NCBI RefSeq assembly: GCF_048403405.1
Contig: NZ_CP183129.1
Direction: 5' to 3' (one strand)
Length of the DNA stretch: 64,000 bases
From: Escherichia coli
GTDB lineage: Bacteria; Pseudomonadota; Gammaproteobacteria; Enterobacterales; Enterobacteriaceae
Below the pieces are notes generated by a model. It was not told the DNA's origin, ran no database searches, and saw only the letters and a list, made by a program, of their open reading frames with translations. Of this stretch, positions 49,392-54,859 are shown piece after piece. How positions within the stretch are numbered: position 1 is the stretch's first letter; every line of letters starts with the position of its first letter. The position numbers were made by a program, and so were the translations under genes.

Positions 49392-49432
49392 TCTGGCGGA
49401 GCTCGCGGGCTCCGCCAGATTTATTTACTTTT
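49392..49432. terminator. Bidirectional rho-independent terminator (11-bp stem TCTGGCGGAGC/GCTCCGCCAGA, then TTTATTTACTTTT) for speD and yacL
   Basis: Long GC stem and T-run read directly after speD stop. Confidence 0.7.
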
Positions 49433-49787
49433 GCTGCACGAAATTACGATAAGCAGCCACCACCTGCAGAAAATCCTCAACGCCGCATAGCGACAGGCTT
49501 TCTTCGTCGTAGTAGTTCATCCCCTCTTCCATTTCATCGCCAGCGAATTCCAGTTGATTGGCGCGAACCATCACTTCTTCGCCGTCCATCCATAGCGTGT
49601 ACTCATGCCCTGCCCGCTGCCAGGAACGTTCGCTACCTTTGAGCGTGCGCGCGGCGTCTTCTACTTCATCAAGCAAGGCCAGGTTTTCTTTCACCTCTTC
49701 GTTAAACCAGTGCCCGACCACTTCATGCCCCATGGACATACGCACCTTTACCACTCCGGTAATATCACGCAGAAATTCGTAATCCAT
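49425..49787 (-). CDS. yacL: UPF0231 family protein YacL
   Basis: ORF 49425..49862; start at [23 protein letters not shown] giving 120 aa. Confidence 0.8.
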
Positions 49788-49983: not shown

Positions 49984-52581
49984 TTACACCGCAGTCTGGA
50001 AAATCACCCCGTCCGCTTTTTCGGTGTACTGAGAAAGCTGGTTGAAGTTCAGGTAACGGTAAGTATCAACGGCAGTTTTATCCACCTGTGCCACGTAGGT
50101 CTGGTACTCTTCCGGCGTCGGTAGTTTGCCAATCAGCGCCGCAACAGCAGCCAGTTCCGCAGAAGCCAGGAAGACATTCGCGCCAGTACCCAGACGGTTC
50201 GGGAAGTTACGGGTAGAGGTGGAAACCACCGTCGCACCGTCTGCTACACGCGCCTGGTTACCCATACACAGGGAACAGCCAGGGATCTCGATACGCGCAC
50301 CGCTCTTACCGAAGACGCTGTAGTAGCCTTCTTCGGTCAACTGCGCGGCGTCCATACGGGTTGGCGGTGCCACCCACAGGCGGGTCGGCAACTGGCCTTT
50401 ATGCGCATCCAGCAGTTTACCCGCAGCACGGAAGTGACCGATGTTGGTCATGCAGGAACCGATAAACACTTCGTCGATCTTCTCACCCTGTACCGCAGAC
50501 AGCGGACGTGCGTCATCCGGATCGTTCGGAGCACACAGGATTGGCTCTTTAATATCCGCCAGATCGATGTCGATCACTGCCGCGTATTCCGCATCTGCAT
50601 CGGCTTCCAGCAGCTCAGGATTCGCCAGCCATTTTTCCATGCCCTGAATACGACGTTCCAGGGTACGACGATCGCCGTAACCTTCCGCGATCATCCACTT
50701 CAGCAGGACGATGTTGGAGTTCAGGTATTCGATGATCGGTTCTTTGTTCAGCTTGATAGTACAACCAGCGGCAGAACGCTCGGCGGACGCATCGGTCAGC
50801 TCAAAGGCCTGCTCAACTTTCAGATCCGGCAGACCTTCAATTTCCAGAATGCGACCAGAGAAGATGTTTTTCTTGCCTTTCTTCTCAACGGTCAGCAGAC
50901 CTTGTTTGATCGCATACAGCGGAATAGCGTGTACCAGATCGCGCAGGGTGATGCCCGGCTGCATTTTGCCTTTGAAGCGCACCAGAACGGATTCCGGCAT
51001 ATCCAGCGGCATTACGCCTGTTGCGGCTGCAAATGCCACCAGACCAGAACCCGCCGGGAAAGAAATGCCGATCGGGAAACGGGTATGGGAGTCACCACCG
51101 GTACCGACGGTATCCGGCAGCAGCATACGGTTCAGCCAGGAGTGGATTACGCCGTCACCCGGACGCAGCGACACACCACCACGGTTCATAATGAAGTCCG
51201 GCAGCGTGTGGTGCGTGTTCACGTCAACTGGCTTCGGATACGCCGCGGTGTGGCAGAAAGACTGCATCACCAGGTCAGCCGAGAAGCCCAGGCACGCCAG
51301 GTCTTTCAGTTCATCACGGGTCATCGGGCCGGTGGTGTCCTGGGAACCTACAGAAGTCATTTTCGGTTCGCAGTACGCGCCCGGACGAATGCCTTTCACG
51401 CCGCAGGCACGACCTACCATTTTCTGCGCCAGCGAGAAGCCGCGGTCGCTCTCAGCGACATCTTTCGCCTGACGGAACACATCGCTGTGCGGCAGACCAA
51501 GTGCTTCACGCGCTTTGGTGGTCAGGCCACGCCCGATAATCAGCGGAATACGGCCGCCAGCACGCACTTCATCAATCAGCACGTCGGTTTTCAGTTCGAA
51601 GGTCGCCAGCAGTTCGCCGGTTTCGTGGTTACGCACTTCACCTTTGTACGGGTAAACGTCAATTACGTCGCCCATGTTCAGGTTAGAGACGTCGACTTCG
51701 ATTGGCAGTGCACCCGCGTCTTCCATCGTGTTAAAGAAGATTGGTGCAATTTTACCGCCGAGGCACAAACCACCGCCGCGTTTGTTCGGCACATGTGGAA
51801 TATCATCGCCCATAAACCACAGAACGGAGTTAGTGGCGGATTTACGCGAAGAACCCGTACCCACAACGTCACCGACGTACGCCAGCGGGAAACCTTTCTG
51901 TTGCAGAGCTTCGATTTGCTTGATCGGACCAACAACACCAGGCTTGTCTGGCTCAATACCTTCACGGGCGTTTTTCAGCATCGCCAGCGCGTGCAGTGGG
52001 ATATCCGGGCGTGACCACGCATCCGGTGCCGGAGAAAGGTCATCGGTGTTGGTTTCGCCTGTGACTTTGAAGACGGTAACGGTCAGTTTTTCAGCCAGCG
52101 CCGGGCGATTCAGGAACCATTCGGCATCCGCCCAGGACTGCATTACCTGCTTCGCATATTCGTTGCCTGCTTTGGCTTTCTCTTCTACGTCATAGAAGTT
52201 ATCGAACATCAGCAGCGTGTGAGAAAGTGCTTTGGCAGCGATCGGTGCCAGTTTGGCATCATCCAGCGCGTCGATCAGCGGATGAATGTTGTAACCACCC
52301 TGCATGGTGCCCAGCAGTTCGATGGCTTTTTCCGGAGTCAGCAGAGGGGATTTGGCTTCACCTTTCGCGATAGCAGCCAGGAAGCCTGCTTTTACATAGG
52401 CAGCTTCATCGACGCCTGGGGGAACACGGTTGGTTAACAGATCTAACAGGAATTCTTCTTCGCCCGCGGGCGGGTTTTTCAGCAGCTCTACAAGCGCGGC
52501 CATTTGGTTTGCATCCAGGGGTTTGGGCGCAATCCCCTCAGCGGCACGCTCAGCTACGTGCTTACGGTATTCTTCTAGCAC
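49984..52581 (-). CDS. acnB: Aconitate hydratase B / 2-methylisocitrate dehydratase
   Basis: ORF 49984..52734; GTG start at [22 protein letters not shown] giving 865 aa. Confidence 0.95.
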
Positions 52582-52935
52582 GACGGTTCTCCTCGCTCTC
52601 ATTGTCATAGTGCGGCAGGCGATTCTCTTCACGCTCCTGTGAGACAGCAGTTTGTAGGGTAAATGCCCAGTACCGCAACGGGCAGAATAGCAGGATTTTG
52701 ACGATGTGTTAATCTGTTTACAAAAAAGCAACATAAAAAAGTGGCTGAATCGTTAAGGATAGTCTAGAGATTGTTTCCCTACGTAAAAACCTCGTTAATT
52801 CGCATGGTGATAATCACCTTTCTCAACGAATCCCAAGATTAGTCAAAATTTAAACTACCGCCTCTTTATACTCGGAATCACAGCACCTGCGGGTGGCAGT
52901 TCGCCGACCATTGCGATTTCCTTGAGATCCGAATT

Positions 52936-54789
52936 ATGAAAATGACTTTGCCGTTTAAACCCCATGTGCTGGCGCTAATTTGCAGTGCCGGGCTTTGTGC
53001 CGCCTCTGCCGGGCTATATATAAAAAGCCGCACAGTGGAAGCGCCTGTGGAAGCGCAATCGACACTACTGGCTGTGTCTGACGCTGCCGCGGTTACGCTT
53101 CCTGCAACGGTTTCCGCGCCTCCCGTAACACCCGCCGTCGTCAAATCCGCATTCAACACTGCACAAATAGATCAATGGGTTGCGCCTGTCGCGCTGTACC
53201 CCGACGCTCTGCTTTCACAAGTGTTAATGGCATCAACCTATCCGGCAAACGTTGCGCAAGCAGTACAATGGTCGCACGATAACCCACTTAAACAAGGCGA
53301 TGCTGCTATTCAGGCGGTATCTGACCAGCCGTGGGACGCCAGCGTTAAATCACTGGTGGCCTTTCCACAATTGATGGCATTGATGGGCGAAAACCCGCAA
53401 TGGGTGCAAAACCTGGGCGATGCTTTTCTGGCGCAGCCGCAGGACGTGATGGACTCGGTACAGCGATTGCGGCAACTGGCGCAACAAACCGGCTCGCTGA
53501 AGTCATCAACTGAACAAAAGATCATCACGACAACGAAAAAAGTCGTACCGGTAAATCAGCCCGCCAACGCCCCTGTCACACAATCAAATACCGTTTCTAC
53601 GTCCAGCCCCGTCGTCGCAGAACCTGCACCGACCGTAATAACCATTGAGCCAGCCAATCCGGATGTGGTTTATATTCCGAACTACAACCCAAACGTGGTT
53701 TACGGCAGTTGGGCCAATACCGCTTATCCGCCAGTTTATCTGCCACCACCAGCCGGAGAACCGTTTGTTGACAGCTTTGTGCGCGGATTCGGCTATAGCA
53801 TGGGCGTTGCTACCACGTACGCGCTATTCAGCAGCATCGACTGGGATGACGACGATCATGACCATCATCATCATGACGATGATGATTATCATCACCACGA
53901 TGGCGGTCATCGTGACGGTAATGACTGGCAACACAACGGCGACAACATCAATATCGACGTCAATAATTTCAACCGTATCACCGGTGAGCATCTTACTGAT
54001 AAGAATATGGCATGGCGGCACAATCCAAACTACCGTGATGGTGTGCCCTATCATGATCAGGATATGGCAAAGCGGTTTCATCAAACCGATGTCAACGGCG
54101 GCATGAGCGCCACGCAGTTACCTGCTCCAACACGCGACAGCCAGCGTCAGGCGGCAGCAAGTCAGTTTCAGCAACGAACACACGCCGCCCCCGTCATTAC
54201 GCGAGATACCCAACGTCAGGCAGCGGCACAGCGGTTTAATGAAGCTGAACACTATGGGAGCTATGACGACTTCCGCGACTTCAGCCGTCGCCAACCACTG
54301 ACCCAGCAACAAAAGGACGCCGCTCGTCAGCGTTATCAGTCGGCCTCTCCTGAGCAGCGCCAGGCAGTCCGCGAGAAAATGCAGACTAACCCGCAGATCC
54401 AGCAGCGAAGAGAGGCTGCGCGTGAGCGTATTCAGTCCGCCTCTCCTGAGCAGCGCCAGGCAGTCCGCGAGAAAATGCAGACTAACCCGCAGAACCAGCA
54501 GCGAAGAGAGGCAGCGCGTGAGCGTATTCAGTCTGCAACTCCCGAACAGCGCCAGGTGTTTAAGGAAAAAGTACAGCAGCGCCCACTGAACCAACAGCAA
54601 CGTGATAACGCCCGCCAGCGTGTTCAATCAGCATCACCTGAGCAACGTCAGGTTTTTCGGGAGAAAGTTCAGGAGAGCCGCCCACAACGTCTAAACGACA
54701 GTGACCATACTGTCAGGCTGAATAACGAGCAACGGTCAGCAGTACGCGAACGTCTCTCTGAGCGCGGAGCAAGGCGACTGGAAAGGTAA
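52936..54789 (+). CDS. yacH: DUF3300 family protein YacH
   Basis: 617-aa ORF with signal peptide, a His/Asp-rich tract and C-terminal 31-aa tandem repeats. Confidence 0.8.
   Translation: MKMTLPFKPHVLALICSAGLCAASAGLYIKSRTVEAPVEAQSTLLAVSDAAAVTLPATVSAPPVTPAVVKSAFNTAQIDQWVAPVALYPDALLSQVLMASTYPANVAQAVQWSHDNPLKQGDAAIQAVSDQPWDASVKSLVAFPQLMALMGENPQWVQNLGDAFLAQPQDVMDSVQRLRQLAQQTGSLKSSTEQKIITTTKKVVPVNQPANAPVTQSNTVSTSSPVVAEPAPTVITIEPANPDVVYIPNYNPNVVYGSWANTAYPPVYLPPPAGEPFVDSFVRGFGYSMGVATTYALFSSIDWDDDDHDHHHHDDDDYHHHDGGHRDGNDWQHNGDNINIDVNNFNRITGEHLTDKNMAWRHNPNYRDGVPYHDQDMAKRFHQTDVNGGMSATQLPAPTRDSQRQAAASQFQQRTHAAPVITRDTQRQAAAQRFNEAEHYGSYDDFRDFSRRQPLTQQQKDAARQRYQSASPEQRQAVREKMQTNPQIQQRREAARERIQSASPEQRQAVREKMQTNPQNQQRREAARERIQSATPEQRQVFKEKVQQRPLNQQQRDNARQRVQSASPEQRQVFREKVQESRPQRLNDSDHTVRLNNEQRSAVRERLSERGARRLER
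54331..54681 (+). repeat. About 3.7 tandem copies of a 93-bp (31-aa) repeat within yacH (RIQSASPEQRQAVREKMQTNPQ.QQRREAARE)
   Basis: Two near-identical and two degenerate copies read in sequence, residues 466-582. Confidence 0.75.
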
Positions 54790-54800
54790 ATTACAGACGT

Positions 54801-54830
54801 AAAAAAAGCGGCGTGGTTAGCCGCTTTTTT
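54801..54830. terminator. Bidirectional rho-independent terminator (AAAAAAAGCGGC-N7-GCCGCTTTTTTT) between yacH and lpdA
   Basis: 6-bp GC stem flanked by A7 and T7 runs. Confidence 0.7.
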
Positions 54831-54859
54831 AATTGCCATATGTCCCGGCAAACGAAGAA

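What the first reader, a model, noticed from the sequence alone, without database searches (positions are those of the whole stretch)
53839..54681. YacH carries a His/Asp-rich tract and a 93-bp tandem repeat array
YacH (DUF3300) contains an acidic/histidine block (DWDDDDHDHHHHDDDDYHHHDGGHRDGNDWQH, 53839..53934) reminiscent of metal-binding segments. It also contains about 3.7 tandem copies of a 31-aa unit (SASPEQRQAVREKMQTNPQ.QQRREAARERIQ) at 54331..54681, the first two nearly identical at the DNA level. Near-identical 93-bp repeats imply recent expansion and potential length polymorphism in a periplasmic protein of unknown function.
Basis: seen in the sequence. Interest (0 to 1): 0.35.

Follow-up and report, generated by a model that had tools for sequence, protein, structure and literature searches.

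The report
Length-variable repeats inside E. coli yacH
The E. coli envelope gene yacH carries two unstable in-frame repeats, a His/Asp-rich loop and a 96-bp helical repeat array, whose lengths differ between strains; this is real but an ordinary kind of protein-length polymorphism in a protein whose function is still unknown.

Summary
Both features are real and lie in yacH (52936..54789, +; 617 aa; Pfam DUF3300). The repeat unit is 96 bp / 32 aa, not 93 bp / 31 aa. Units 1 and 2 are 93/96 nt identical; units 3 and 4 have diverged.

The predicted length polymorphism is confirmed. Across E. coli genomes the array has 2, 3, 4 or 5 units. In even-spaced samples, about half of the genomes have 4 units and most of the rest have 3. 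The tract has at least 30 length or sequence variants (24-35 aa). Near-identical protein backbones carry 2, 3, 4 and 5 units, so the changes are recent and recurrent.

The tract is an enterobacterial expansion of a turn that is 4 residues long in most DUF3300 proteins. It is encoded almost entirely by NAY codons and is predicted to be disordered. Published work on S. Typhimurium reports an 8-bp frameshifting deletion in His/Asp codons of yacH. Each 32-aa unit is predicted to form a proline-capped helix-turn-helix within a basic Q/R-rich tail, and other genera carry their own tail repeats.

Metal binding is plausible but untested. No solved structure, Spy/CpxP-type motif or known typing locus matches. 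Verdict: a genuine, modestly interesting coding repeat polymorphism of a known kind.

The parts
52936..54789 (+). yacH coding sequence (617 aa plus stop), a DUF3300 protein
   Evidence: ORF. Pfam PF11737 at E 2e-77. 100% identical to the annotated yacH of E. coli strain 4621.
52960..53022 (+). N-terminal hydrophobic helix (aa 9-29), a probable signal peptide or signal anchor
   Evidence: AF2 helix 9-29. The sequence VLALICSAGLCAASAGLY follows a basic N-terminus. Whether it is cleaved was not tested.
53158..53487 (+). Conserved all-helical N-terminal domain of DUF3300 (aa 75-184)
   Evidence: pLDDT is above 95. All nine invariant and many of the nearly invariant family columns lie here. dN/dS is 0.01-0.04 within E. 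coli.
53521..53640 (+). Hypervariable P/T/V-rich linker (aa 196-235) with two ancient allele families
   Evidence: Two haplotype families are visible in the alignment. Between them dS is about 0.77-0.95 and dN about 0.18-0.20.
53839..53934 (+). His/Asp-rich tract (aa 302-333), an expanded disordered loop between two core beta-strands
   Evidence: Sequence. 23/32 residues are D or H and 25/32 codons are NAY. Residues 311-315, 319-321 and 323-328 have pLDDT below 50; block means are 49 for 311-330 and 65-68 at the tract ends. The homologous loop has a median length of 4 aa in 97 family members. 30 variants occur among 120 E. coli/Shigella cluster representatives.
54130..54267 (+). Two degenerate 23-aa repeats (TRDSQRQAAASQFQQ... 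/ TRDTQRQAAAQRFNE...)
   Evidence: Read directly from the sequence. AF2 helices 400-414 and 423-439. A 45-aa tandem duplication overlapping this region occurs on the K-12 backbone (P0001-P0003).
54295..54339 (+). Leading half-unit (PLTQQQKDAARQRYQ), homologous to the second helix of the 32-aa unit
   Evidence: Sequence comparison with PQIQQRREAARERIQ. It overlaps AF2 helix 457-469.
54340..54435 (+). Repeat unit 1 (SASPEQRQAVREKMQTNPQIQQRREAARERIQ)
   Evidence: TRF. 93/96 nt identical to unit 2. AF2 helices 472-483 and 486-500.
54436..54531 (+). Repeat unit 2 (…NPQNQQRREAARERIQ)
   Evidence: AF2 helices 504-515 and 518-532. One of units 1 and 2 is missing in 3-unit alleles, and both are missing in the 2-unit allele L005.
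54532..54627 (+). Repeat unit 3, diverged (SATPEQRQVFKEKVQQRPLNQQQRDNARQRVQ)
   Evidence: 62-64% nt identity to units 1 and 2. AF2 helix 536-547.
54628..54723 (+). Repeat unit 4, degenerate in its second half (SASPEQRQVFREKVQESRPQRLNDSDHTVRLN)
   Evidence: 47-51% nt identity to the other three units. pLDDT is below 50 over almost all of the unit, 548-601.
54724..54786 (+). C-terminal basic half-unit (NEQRSAVRERLSERGARRLER)
   Evidence: Resembles the first helix of the unit (SPEQRQAVREKMQ). Read from the sequence. AF2 helix 598-606 at low confidence.

Best explanation
The finding consists of two independent, mutation-prone, in-frame coding repeats. Both lie in non-core parts of YacH, an exported DUF3300 protein whose expression responds to envelope stress.

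(1) The His/Asp tract is an imperfect trinucleotide (NAY-codon: GAY, CAY, TAY, AAY) microsatellite. In Enterobacteriaceae it has expanded what is normally a 4-residue turn between two beta-strands into a disordered, strongly acidic, His-rich loop of about 30 residues. Replication slippage, and rearrangement at its short direct and inverted repeats, add or remove whole codons. This gives loops of 24-35 aa. Occasionally the same process destroys the gene.

(2) The 96-bp array is a minisatellite. Each unit encodes two proline-capped helices (SPEQ... and NPQ...), that is, one helix-turn-helix. Unequal recombination or slippage between near-identical units changes the count between 2 and 5. This lengthens or shortens a basic, Q/R-rich helical tail.

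Because every change is a multiple of three, the result is a graded change in protein length, not an on/off switch.

Shown: the anatomy, the polymorphism, its recurrence on single haplotypes, its lineage specificity and purifying selection on the repeat residues. Inferred: the slippage/recombination mechanism. Also inferred are two functional ideas: that the acidic His loop acts as a low-affinity binder of cations (metal ions, protons or cationic peptides), and that the tail acts as an extendable basic spacer or ligand for anionic envelope material.
For: Anatomy. Copy-number and tract polymorphism in complete genomes: gene spans of 1854, 1758, 1764, 1746, 1815 and 1662 bp in an even-spaced 60-row sample of 5425 genomes. 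The repeat region spans 586-590 bp in 32/60 rows and 492-494 bp in 22/60. The tract region spans 391 bp in 49/60 rows, +6 bp in 6, -6 in 1, +24 in 1 and -39 in 2. Aligned alleles have 2, 3 or 4 units and tract changes of +DH, +DHDHHHHD or -13 aa. A 5-unit allele exists and His runs range from 3 to 7.

Recurrence on one backbone: L005, L003, L004 and P0006 differ by 0-4 substitutions yet carry 2, 3, 4 and 5 units. The K-12 backbone has acquired a 45-aa duplication and a WDDD duplication with only 1-2 substitutions.

Lineage specificity: the loop has a median length of 4 aa in 97 diverse homologues, and only 5 have an expansion with 5 or more His. Enteric orthologues have D/H/Y/N/G loops of differing length, and other lineages have their own tail repeats.

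DNA basis: 25/32 codons are NAY, and many short direct and inverted repeats lie in the tract. An 8-bp GATCATCA deletion causes a frameshift at codons gac gat cat cac in S. Typhimurium. In an ETEC genome yacH is annotated as frameshifted and the sequence switches to inverted downstream sequence immediately after the NAY-codon run.

Structure: residues 311-328 of the tract have pLDDT below 50, and the units fold as helix pairs with pLDDT 72-89.

Selection: dN/dS is 0.10-0.17 in the C-terminal repeats and 0-0.30 in the tract.

Envelope link: yacH is CpxR-regulated and its deletion makes cells more protamine-resistant. It is Rob-dependent, ampicillin-induced and cathelicidin-induced.
Against: No mutation rate was measured. 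Frequencies come from 60-row systematic samples of a clonally biased genome collection, not a full census. Many of the 120 cluster representatives are single metagenome or Logan assemblies and may contain errors. The hairpin potential of the tract DNA is no greater than in composition-matched shuffles (z = -0.83), so a special secondary-structure mechanism is not supported. The AF2 confidence for the repeats is only moderate, and the alignment is poor in that region. Nothing here tests cation binding, location or any phenotype of particular alleles. The published protamine phenotype concerns a whole-gene deletion.
Confidence: 0.75

Rival explanations
1. The tract is a selected periplasmic metal-binding module. 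It would capture or buffer Zn, Ni or Cu ions in the way the flexible His/acidic loop of ZnuA or the His-rich tails of nickel chaperones do, and this would be the reason it exists.
For: There are 10 His and 13 Asp in 32 residues. The tract is predicted to be a flexible loop. A D/H-rich loop is kept in all seven enteric orthologues examined, and at least two independent expansions occur elsewhere in the family (P0130, P0175). dN/dS in the tract is at most 0.3. The only PDB sequence matches are engineered FLAG-plus-His tags, which shows how tag-like the tract is.
Against: No metal data exist. The papers read here report no metal-related regulation or phenotype for yacH. The composition D/H/Y/N is exactly the NAY codon family, so a mutational origin explains it without selection. 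Length varies from 24 to 35 aa within one species, and one allele loses 13 residues. Most family members manage with a 4-residue turn.
Confidence: 0.3
2. Both repeats are neutral low-complexity by-products of slippage in tolerant, disordered regions of a dispensable protein, and their length variation has no functional consequence.
For: yacH is knocked out naturally: by IS1 in E. coli E69, by a frameshift in several S. Typhimurium strains, and in an ETEC genome where it is annotated as frameshifted. Deletion mutants grow well and even gain fitness in some assays. The gene's dN is 25-50 times that of its housekeeping neighbours. Tail repeats differ freely between genera.
Against: The gene is present in 5425 of 5426 complete E. 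coli genomes, and one place covers at least 80% of the query in 5372 of them. dN/dS of 0.10-0.17 in the repeat region indicates purifying selection on the encoded residues. The SPEQRQ cap is invariant across 17 unit variants.
Confidence: 0.3
3. The 32-aa units are Spy/CpxP/ZraP-type LTXXQ chaperone motifs, which would make YacH a Cpx-regulated periplasmic chaperone.
For: The motif (S/T)PEQRQ resembles LTPEQ, and yacH is CpxR-regulated like cpxP and spy.
Against: No Pfam LTXXQ or Metal_resist hit appears even at E up to 10 on the isolated C-terminus; the best match is sub-threshold DUF3106 at 18.8 bits against a cut-off of 24.3. A profile of 17 units finds no Spy, CpxP or ZraP chain in the PDB at E up to 10. 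S/T-P-E-Q is a generic helix N-capping box.
Confidence: 0.05
4. The repeats form a contingency (phase-variation) locus that switches yacH on and off.
For: A frameshifting 8-bp deletion in the His/Asp codons (gac gat cat cac) of S. Typhimurium yacH, and one E. coli pseudogene whose sequence breaks off immediately after the tract's NAY-codon run.
Against: The minisatellite unit is 96 bp, and all tract variants seen in intact genes differ by multiples of 3. Nearly all E. coli genomes keep an intact ORF. The Salmonella deletion is fixed in lineages rather than reversible.
Confidence: 0.04

Closest known systems
Coding minisatellites (VNTRs) of E. coli/Shigella used in MLVA typing, for example locus ms11 (96-bp unit)
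   Same: Tandem head-to-tail units of about 100 bp inside genes, with copy number differing between strains. The unit length (96 bp) is even identical to that of ms11.
   Different: The ms11 primers do not occur anywhere in the 64-kb window, even with 3 mismatches allowed. The yacH array is therefore a different locus. In the papers I read it is not listed as a typing marker.
His/acidic-rich flexible loop of the periplasmic zinc-binding protein ZnuA, and His-rich tails of nickel chaperones (HypB, SlyD, UreE, Hpn). This comparison rests on general knowledge and was not retrieved here.
   Same: A disordered stretch dominated by His plus Asp/Glu, variable in length between species. In ZnuA the stretch sits in an exported protein.
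   Different: There is no sequence or fold relationship: YacH has no solved relative. Metal binding by YacH is untested. Its tract replaces a 4-residue turn in an unrelated fold.
DUF3300-DUF2950 two-gene cassette of Proteobacteria
   Same: YacH is a full-length DUF3300 protein. Orthologues in Kluyvera, Raoultella, Enterobacter, Buttiauxella and RIT691 keep a DUF2950 gene downstream on the same strand, about 10 bp away in four of them and about 140 bp away in RIT691. This matches what was reported for rhizobia.
   Different: In the window, and in E. albertii, the DUF2950 partner is absent. The yacH stop codon is followed after 70 bp by the convergent lpd gene. Neither family has a characterised member.
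Spy/CpxP/ZraP LTXXQ family and DUF3106 (PF11304)
   Same: Short helices that begin with (S/T)PEQ. yacH shares Cpx regulation with Spy and CpxP. There is a weak DUF3106 match at E 0.0023.
   Different: No hit reaches any family threshold, and there is no PDB profile match. The resemblance is best explained as a shared helix N-cap.

Membership tests
DUF3300 (Pfam PF11737) | Match to the family HMM above the gathering score | tested here: met
   260 bits against a cut-off of 25, E 2e-77, aa 75-333 covering profile positions 2-227 of 227.
DUF3300-DUF2950 gene pair | DUF2950 gene downstream on the same strand | tested here: not met
   Only 70 bp separate the yacH stop (54789) from the convergent lpd gene. 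The partner is present in five other enteric genera, E 1e-70 to 3e-96 in the four scanned against Pfam.
Variable-number tandem repeat (coding minisatellite) | Head-to-tail copies of one unit | tested here: met
   TRF finds a period of 96 bp and 2.4-2.9 copies with scores of 387 and 268. Four in-frame units are spaced 32 aa apart.
Variable-number tandem repeat (coding minisatellite) | Copy number differs between strains of the species | tested here: met
   Alleles with 2, 3, 4 and 5 units exist. In samples of 5425 genomes, 32/60 rows have 4 units and at least 22/60 have 3.
Phase-variable contingency locus | Repeat changes shift the reading frame or promoter spacing reversibly | tested here: not met
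   The unit is 96 bp, and tract variants differ by 3n bp. Only sporadic fixed pseudogenes were found.
MLVA locus ms11 (96-bp unit) | Published primer pair flanks the array | tested here: not met
   Neither primer matches the window with up to 3 mismatches.
LTXXQ / Spy-CpxP-ZraP (PF07813, PF13801) | HMM or profile similarity to family members | tested here: not met
   No such family is listed at E up to 10 for the C-terminal 149-184 aa. The unit profile finds no Spy, CpxP or ZraP chain in the PDB.
DUF3106 (PF11304) | Match above the gathering score | tested here: not met
   18.8 bits against a cut-off of 24.3, E 0.0023.
His-rich metal-binding segments (ZnuA loop, Hpn, HypB, SlyD tails) | Measured binding of divalent metal ions | not testable with these tools
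   Only composition (10 His and 13 Asp in 32 aa) and predicted disorder are available.
Exported (periplasmic or outer-membrane) protein | Cleavable signal peptide or demonstrated localisation | not tested
   The N-terminal hydrophobic helix (aa 9-29) and a possible A-S-A cleavage motif are read from the sequence only. The papers call the protein extracellular or outer membrane from predictions.

The most novel reading that the evidence does not exclude
The acidic His-rich loop and the basic helical tail together form a tunable electrostatic module of the cell envelope. The allelic length series would set how strongly cationic antimicrobial peptides or metal ions are attracted to or held in the envelope. 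The unusually high diversity of yacH would then reflect host- or phage-driven balancing selection rather than drift. This would connect three observations: the protamine-resistance phenotype of the yacH deletion; the regulation of yacH by CpxR and its response to cationic peptides; and the ancient allele families in the linker.
Probability: 0.1. Interest if true: 0.55.

Novelty: new member of a known kind. Interest (0 to 1): 0.33.

Why it matters
YacH belongs to a very large, completely uncharacterised family of exported proteins. The family has about 9,500 clusters at 50% identity and no solved structural relative. Three things now help anyone studying it. Its two odd segments are lineage-specific, hypervariable add-ons rather than part of the conserved core. 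Natural alleles already provide a series of 2 to 5 helical units and loops of 24 to 35 residues. And the tract is a mutational hotspot where Salmonella yacH has been inactivated. In practical terms, the 96-bp array and the tract could serve as typing markers, and they can cause alignment or annotation artefacts. The finding does not by itself reveal a new mechanism.

Tried and rejected
1. Spy/CpxP/ZraP LTXXQ relationship of the SPEQRQ units: a Pfam scan of the isolated C-terminus at E up to 10 and a 17-unit profile against the PDB found nothing. Rejected; the motif is a generic helix N-cap.

2. Identity with the published 96-bp MLVA locus ms11: the primers are absent from the window. Rejected.

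5. NCBIfam gave no family.

6. Special hairpin or cruciform propensity of the tract DNA: inverted repeats exist, but folding energy is not better than in dinucleotide-preserving shuffles (z = -0.83). It was not retained as a distinct mechanism.

The survey of orthologues is therefore thin, and Salmonella is covered only through the literature.

8. Literature: only three papers in the library mention DUF3300, and none characterises it.
Full report
**Observation.** The region lies in one ORF, 52936..54789 on the + strand, encoding 617 aa. It sits between acnB and lpd, which are on the opposite strand. The protein matches Pfam DUF3300 (PF11737) at aa 75-333 with E 2e-77 and matches no NCBIfam model. 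Its DNA is 100% identical to the annotated yacH of E. coli strain 4621.

The His/Asp tract is exactly at 53839..53934, aa 302-333. It holds 13 Asp and 10 His in 32 residues, against 6.3% D+H elsewhere in the protein (binomial P about 4e-21).

The tandem array is real, but its period is 96 bp (32 aa), not 93 bp (31 aa). Tandem Repeats Finder reports 54325..54556 as 2.4 copies with 91% matches and a score of 387. In frame, the units are 54340-54435, 54436-54531, 54532-54627 and 54628-54723. Units 1 and 2 share 93/96 nt. Unit 3 is 62-64% and unit 4 is 47-48% identical to units 1 and 2. A half-unit precedes the array and another ends the protein, so most of the last 165 residues derive from one 16-aa helix motif.

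**Polymorphism within E. coli.** yacH is found in 5425 of 5426 complete genomes. Only 15 genomes are at least 99% identical to the window, and most are 90-95% identical (K-12 is 94.2%).

- In an even-spaced 60-row sample of that ranking, the gene spans 1854 bp in 28 rows, 1758 bp (minus one unit) in 19 and 1764 bp in 6. Single rows span 1746, 1815 and 1662 bp.
- A second sample used only the repeat region. It gave 586-590 bp (four units) in 32/60 rows and 492-494 bp (three units) in 22/60. The remaining rows were mostly diverged three-unit alleles such as that of CFT073.
- A third sample across the tract gave the window's length in 49/60 rows, +6 bp (including ST131) in 6, -6 bp in 1, +24 bp in 1 and -39 bp in 2.
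- Ten alleles fetched and aligned show 2, 3 or 4 units. Their tract changes are +DH, +DHDHHHHD and -13 aa.
- Among 120 E. coli/Shigella cluster representatives there are 30 different tracts, 24-35 aa long between W303 and NGDNIN, with His runs of 3 to 7. There is also a five-unit allele, and separate 45-aa and 17-aa tandem duplications occur.

**The changes are recent and recurrent.** Alleles L005, L003, L004 and P0006 differ by 0-4 amino-acid substitutions, yet they carry 2, 3, 4 and 5 units plus different tract lengths. On the K-12 backbone, a 45-aa duplication and a WDDD duplication have arisen with only 1-2 substitutions. The identity between units 1 and 2 depends on the allele: 95/96 in L004, 93/96 in the window, 90/96 in K-12, 86/96 in O157 and 84-85/96 in the CFT073 type. 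This fits repeated loss, re-duplication or conversion rather than one recent expansion.

**Orthologues and the wider family.** DUF3300 is a large family: 9509 clusters at 50% identity reach E ≤ 1e-3. Its members share:

- a signal sequence;
- a conserved helical domain;
- a P/A/T-rich linker;
- a conserved 'IEP.NP.VVYVP.YNP' segment;
- a Gly-rich hydrophobic stretch ending in W;
- a short turn;
- an (D/N)I(D/N)(I/V)N strand;
- a 'W.H.P.HR.GV.YRD' motif;
- a basic low-complexity tail.

In 97 diverse homologues the turn after the conserved W has a median length of 4 residues, for example GGGD, HHGD or GHDD. Only the enteric clade and two other sequences have expansions with 5 or more His. Named orthologues from E. 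albertii, Kluyvera, Raoultella, Enterobacter, Buttiauxella and isolate RIT691 all keep a loop at this position. The loops are built from D, H, Y, N and G and differ in length and order.

The tails also carry tandem repeats, but a different unit in each lineage. Examples are about 17 aa 'QNPTAQQQQRR.NAKSHL' in Kluyvera and RIT691, 'REAIKARHDNPTPQQQQ' in Enterobacter, and 'NVDRDAARQKAQ' or 'GDARERAREVASNRAAGS' in distant members. The 32-aa unit is confined to Escherichia. E. albertii has three units, and a very divergent E. coli allele has 34-aa units.

**Predicted structure.** An AlphaFold2 model built on a 98-sequence alignment has mean pLDDT 72 and pTM 0.59.

- The N-terminal helix spans aa 9-29.
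- The helical domain at aa 75-184 has pLDDT above 95, and there is a confident beta region.
- Residues 311-328 of the tract are mostly below pLDDT 50, and the tract sits between strands 299-301 and 338-341.
- Each 32-aa unit forms two helices (472-483/486-500 and 504-515/518-532; then 536-547) with pLDDT 72-89.
- Almost all of residues 548-617 have pLDDT below 50; a short helix is predicted at 598-606.

Both helices of a unit start with a Pro preceded by Ser, Thr or Asn, which is a standard N-capping arrangement.

**DNA-level mechanism (inferred).** Twenty-five of the 32 tract codons are NAY. D, H, Y and N, the residues that make up the loop in all enteric orthologues, are exactly the amino acids NAY codons encode. 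The tract therefore behaves as an imperfect trinucleotide microsatellite that diversifies by first-base substitutions and codon slippage. It is full of short direct (9-nt period) and inverted repeats. However, its folding energy is not exceptional for its composition (z = -0.83).

Published work on Salmonella Typhimurium describes an 8-bp deletion (GATCATCA, codons gac gat cat cac, Asp284fs). It makes yacH a pseudogene in 14028s, UK-1, SL1344, D23580 and a milk isolate, relative to LT2 (PMC3391293; PMC10048834). These codons are the Salmonella His/Asp stretch. In one ETEC genome yacH is annotated as frameshifted, and its sequence switches to inverted downstream sequence immediately after the NAY-codon run. 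In E. coli E69 the gene is split by IS1.

For the 96-bp array, unequal recombination or slippage between units that are 84-95/96 identical is the obvious mechanism. It was not measured here.

**Selection.** Between the window and K-12, yacH has dN 0.025 and dS 0.197. The neighbouring genes pdhR, aceE, aceF, lpdA, acnB, speD, speE, yacC and cueO have dN of 0.001 or less and dS of 0.03-0.11. Constraint within yacH is uneven:

- N-terminal domain: dN/dS 0.01-0.04.
- C-terminal repeats: dN/dS 0.10-0.17.
- Tract: dN/dS 0-0.30.
- Linker aa 196-235: two old allele families, with dS about 0.77-0.95 between them.

The repeat residues are therefore under purifying selection even though their number varies.

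**Function.** No DUF3300 or DUF2950 protein is characterised, and only three papers in the library mention DUF3300. Published data tie yacH to envelope stress:

- It is CpxR-regulated and repressed by protamine (and, as that paper cites, by cecropin A). A yacH deletion survives protamine better than wild type (PMC9600279).
- It is down-regulated in a rob mutant (PMC7537768).
- Its promoter is induced by ampicillin (PMC8865558).
- It is induced by a cathelicidin peptide in UTI89 (PMC6737244).
- Its deletion raises recombinant protein yield (PMC7376861).

The tract has a net charge of -12 plus 10 His, and the last 187 residues have a net charge of +15 with 19% Q and 19% R. My best inference has two parts. 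The loop is a low-affinity cation-binding appendage, for metal ions, protons or cationic peptides. The tail is an extendable basic helical spacer or ligand for anionic envelope polymers. I put the probability of a specific binding role at about 0.3, and purely neutral variation is about equally likely. A Spy/CpxP-like chaperone reading and a phase-variation reading were tested and are not supported.

**Comparison with known things.** The array is a typical coding minisatellite. It shares its unit length with the MLVA locus ms11 but is a different locus, because the ms11 primers are absent from the window. The tract resembles the flexible His/acidic loop of ZnuA and the tails of nickel chaperones in composition only; that comparison is from general knowledge. 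YacH is a genuine DUF3300 member, but unlike its relatives in other enteric genera and in rhizobia, it lacks the downstream DUF2950 partner.

**Verdict.** It is a new, well-documented example of a known kind of variation in an unstudied protein. Interest is modest at 0.33. It would be higher only if allele length turns out to tune envelope interactions with cationic peptides or metals.

Noticed in passing
window 54790-54859; L015 4645-5439; L016 4648-5442; L017 1922-2728; L018 4605-5450; L014 4900-5562: In Kluyvera, Raoultella, Enterobacter, Buttiauxella and RIT691 the yacH orthologue is followed on the same strand by a DUF2950 gene, about 10 bp downstream in four of them and about 140 bp in RIT691 (PF11453; E 1e-70 to 3e-96 in the four scanned against Pfam). 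In the window and in E. albertii this partner is missing, and only 70 bp separate yacH from the convergent lpd gene. A paper on rhizobia calls the DUF3300-DUF2950 pairing universal.
   Followed up: partly
window 53521-53640 (aa 196-235 of YacH): The linker has two deeply diverged allele families in E. coli (VVPVNQPANAPVTQ... versus AVPVKQTVTAPVIP...). Between them dS is about 0.77-0.95 and dN about 0.18-0.20. The families are recombined mosaically with other parts of the gene. Overall, yacH dN is 25-50 times that of its housekeeping neighbours.
   Followed up: partly
window 49425-49787 (yacL): yacL is also unusually diverged between the window and K-12 (93.9% nt identity, dS 0.29, dN 0.014). 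The flanking genes acnB and speD have dS of 0.06-0.09.
   Followed up: no
L013 4114-4811 (E. coli E69): Here yacH is interrupted after about aa 375 by an insertion that encodes IS1-type InsA and InsB proteins on the opposite strand. The IS1 identification is from my own knowledge of those sequences. This is a natural knockout.
   Followed up: partly
L020 about 2712-2790 (ETEC isolate L3_E36): yacH is annotated as frameshifted. After ...CACCACGAT the sequence continues as the reverse complement of window positions about 54044-54063. This indicates an inversion (or misassembly) whose left breakpoint falls immediately after the tract's NAY-codon run.
   Followed up: partly
L010 3001-4860 (E. coli AST85): This is a very divergent yacH allele of 619 aa (dN 0.19 against the window, with dS saturated). 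It has 34-aa units and a longer N-terminal linker, and it sits next to an lpdA whose protein accession is identical to that of the other strains. megablast aligned only the first 98 bp.
   Followed up: no
P0001-P0003 and P0097 (E. coli cluster representatives): Two further tandem duplications lie outside the 96-bp array. One is a 45-aa (135-bp) duplication of AAPVITRDTQRQ...QQQKD on the K-12 backbone. The other is a 17-aa (51-bp) duplication inside unit 3.
   Followed up: partly
window 53839-53934 compared with PDB chains: The only PDB sequence matches to YacH (best E 0.035) are the FLAG-plus-polyHis tags of engineered GPCR constructs aligned to the tract. This is a database curiosity, not homology.
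   Followed up: yes
window 49984-52734 and 54860-56317: The mechanical ORFs for acnB (916 aa) and lpd (485 aa) extend upstream of the starts annotated in RefSeq, which correspond to window positions 52581 and 56284. The longer ORFs are probably not the real starts.
   Followed up: partly
(E. coli genome search summaries): A few matches to yacH sequence (5-6 places) lie on records classed as plasmids. They were not examined.
   Followed up: no
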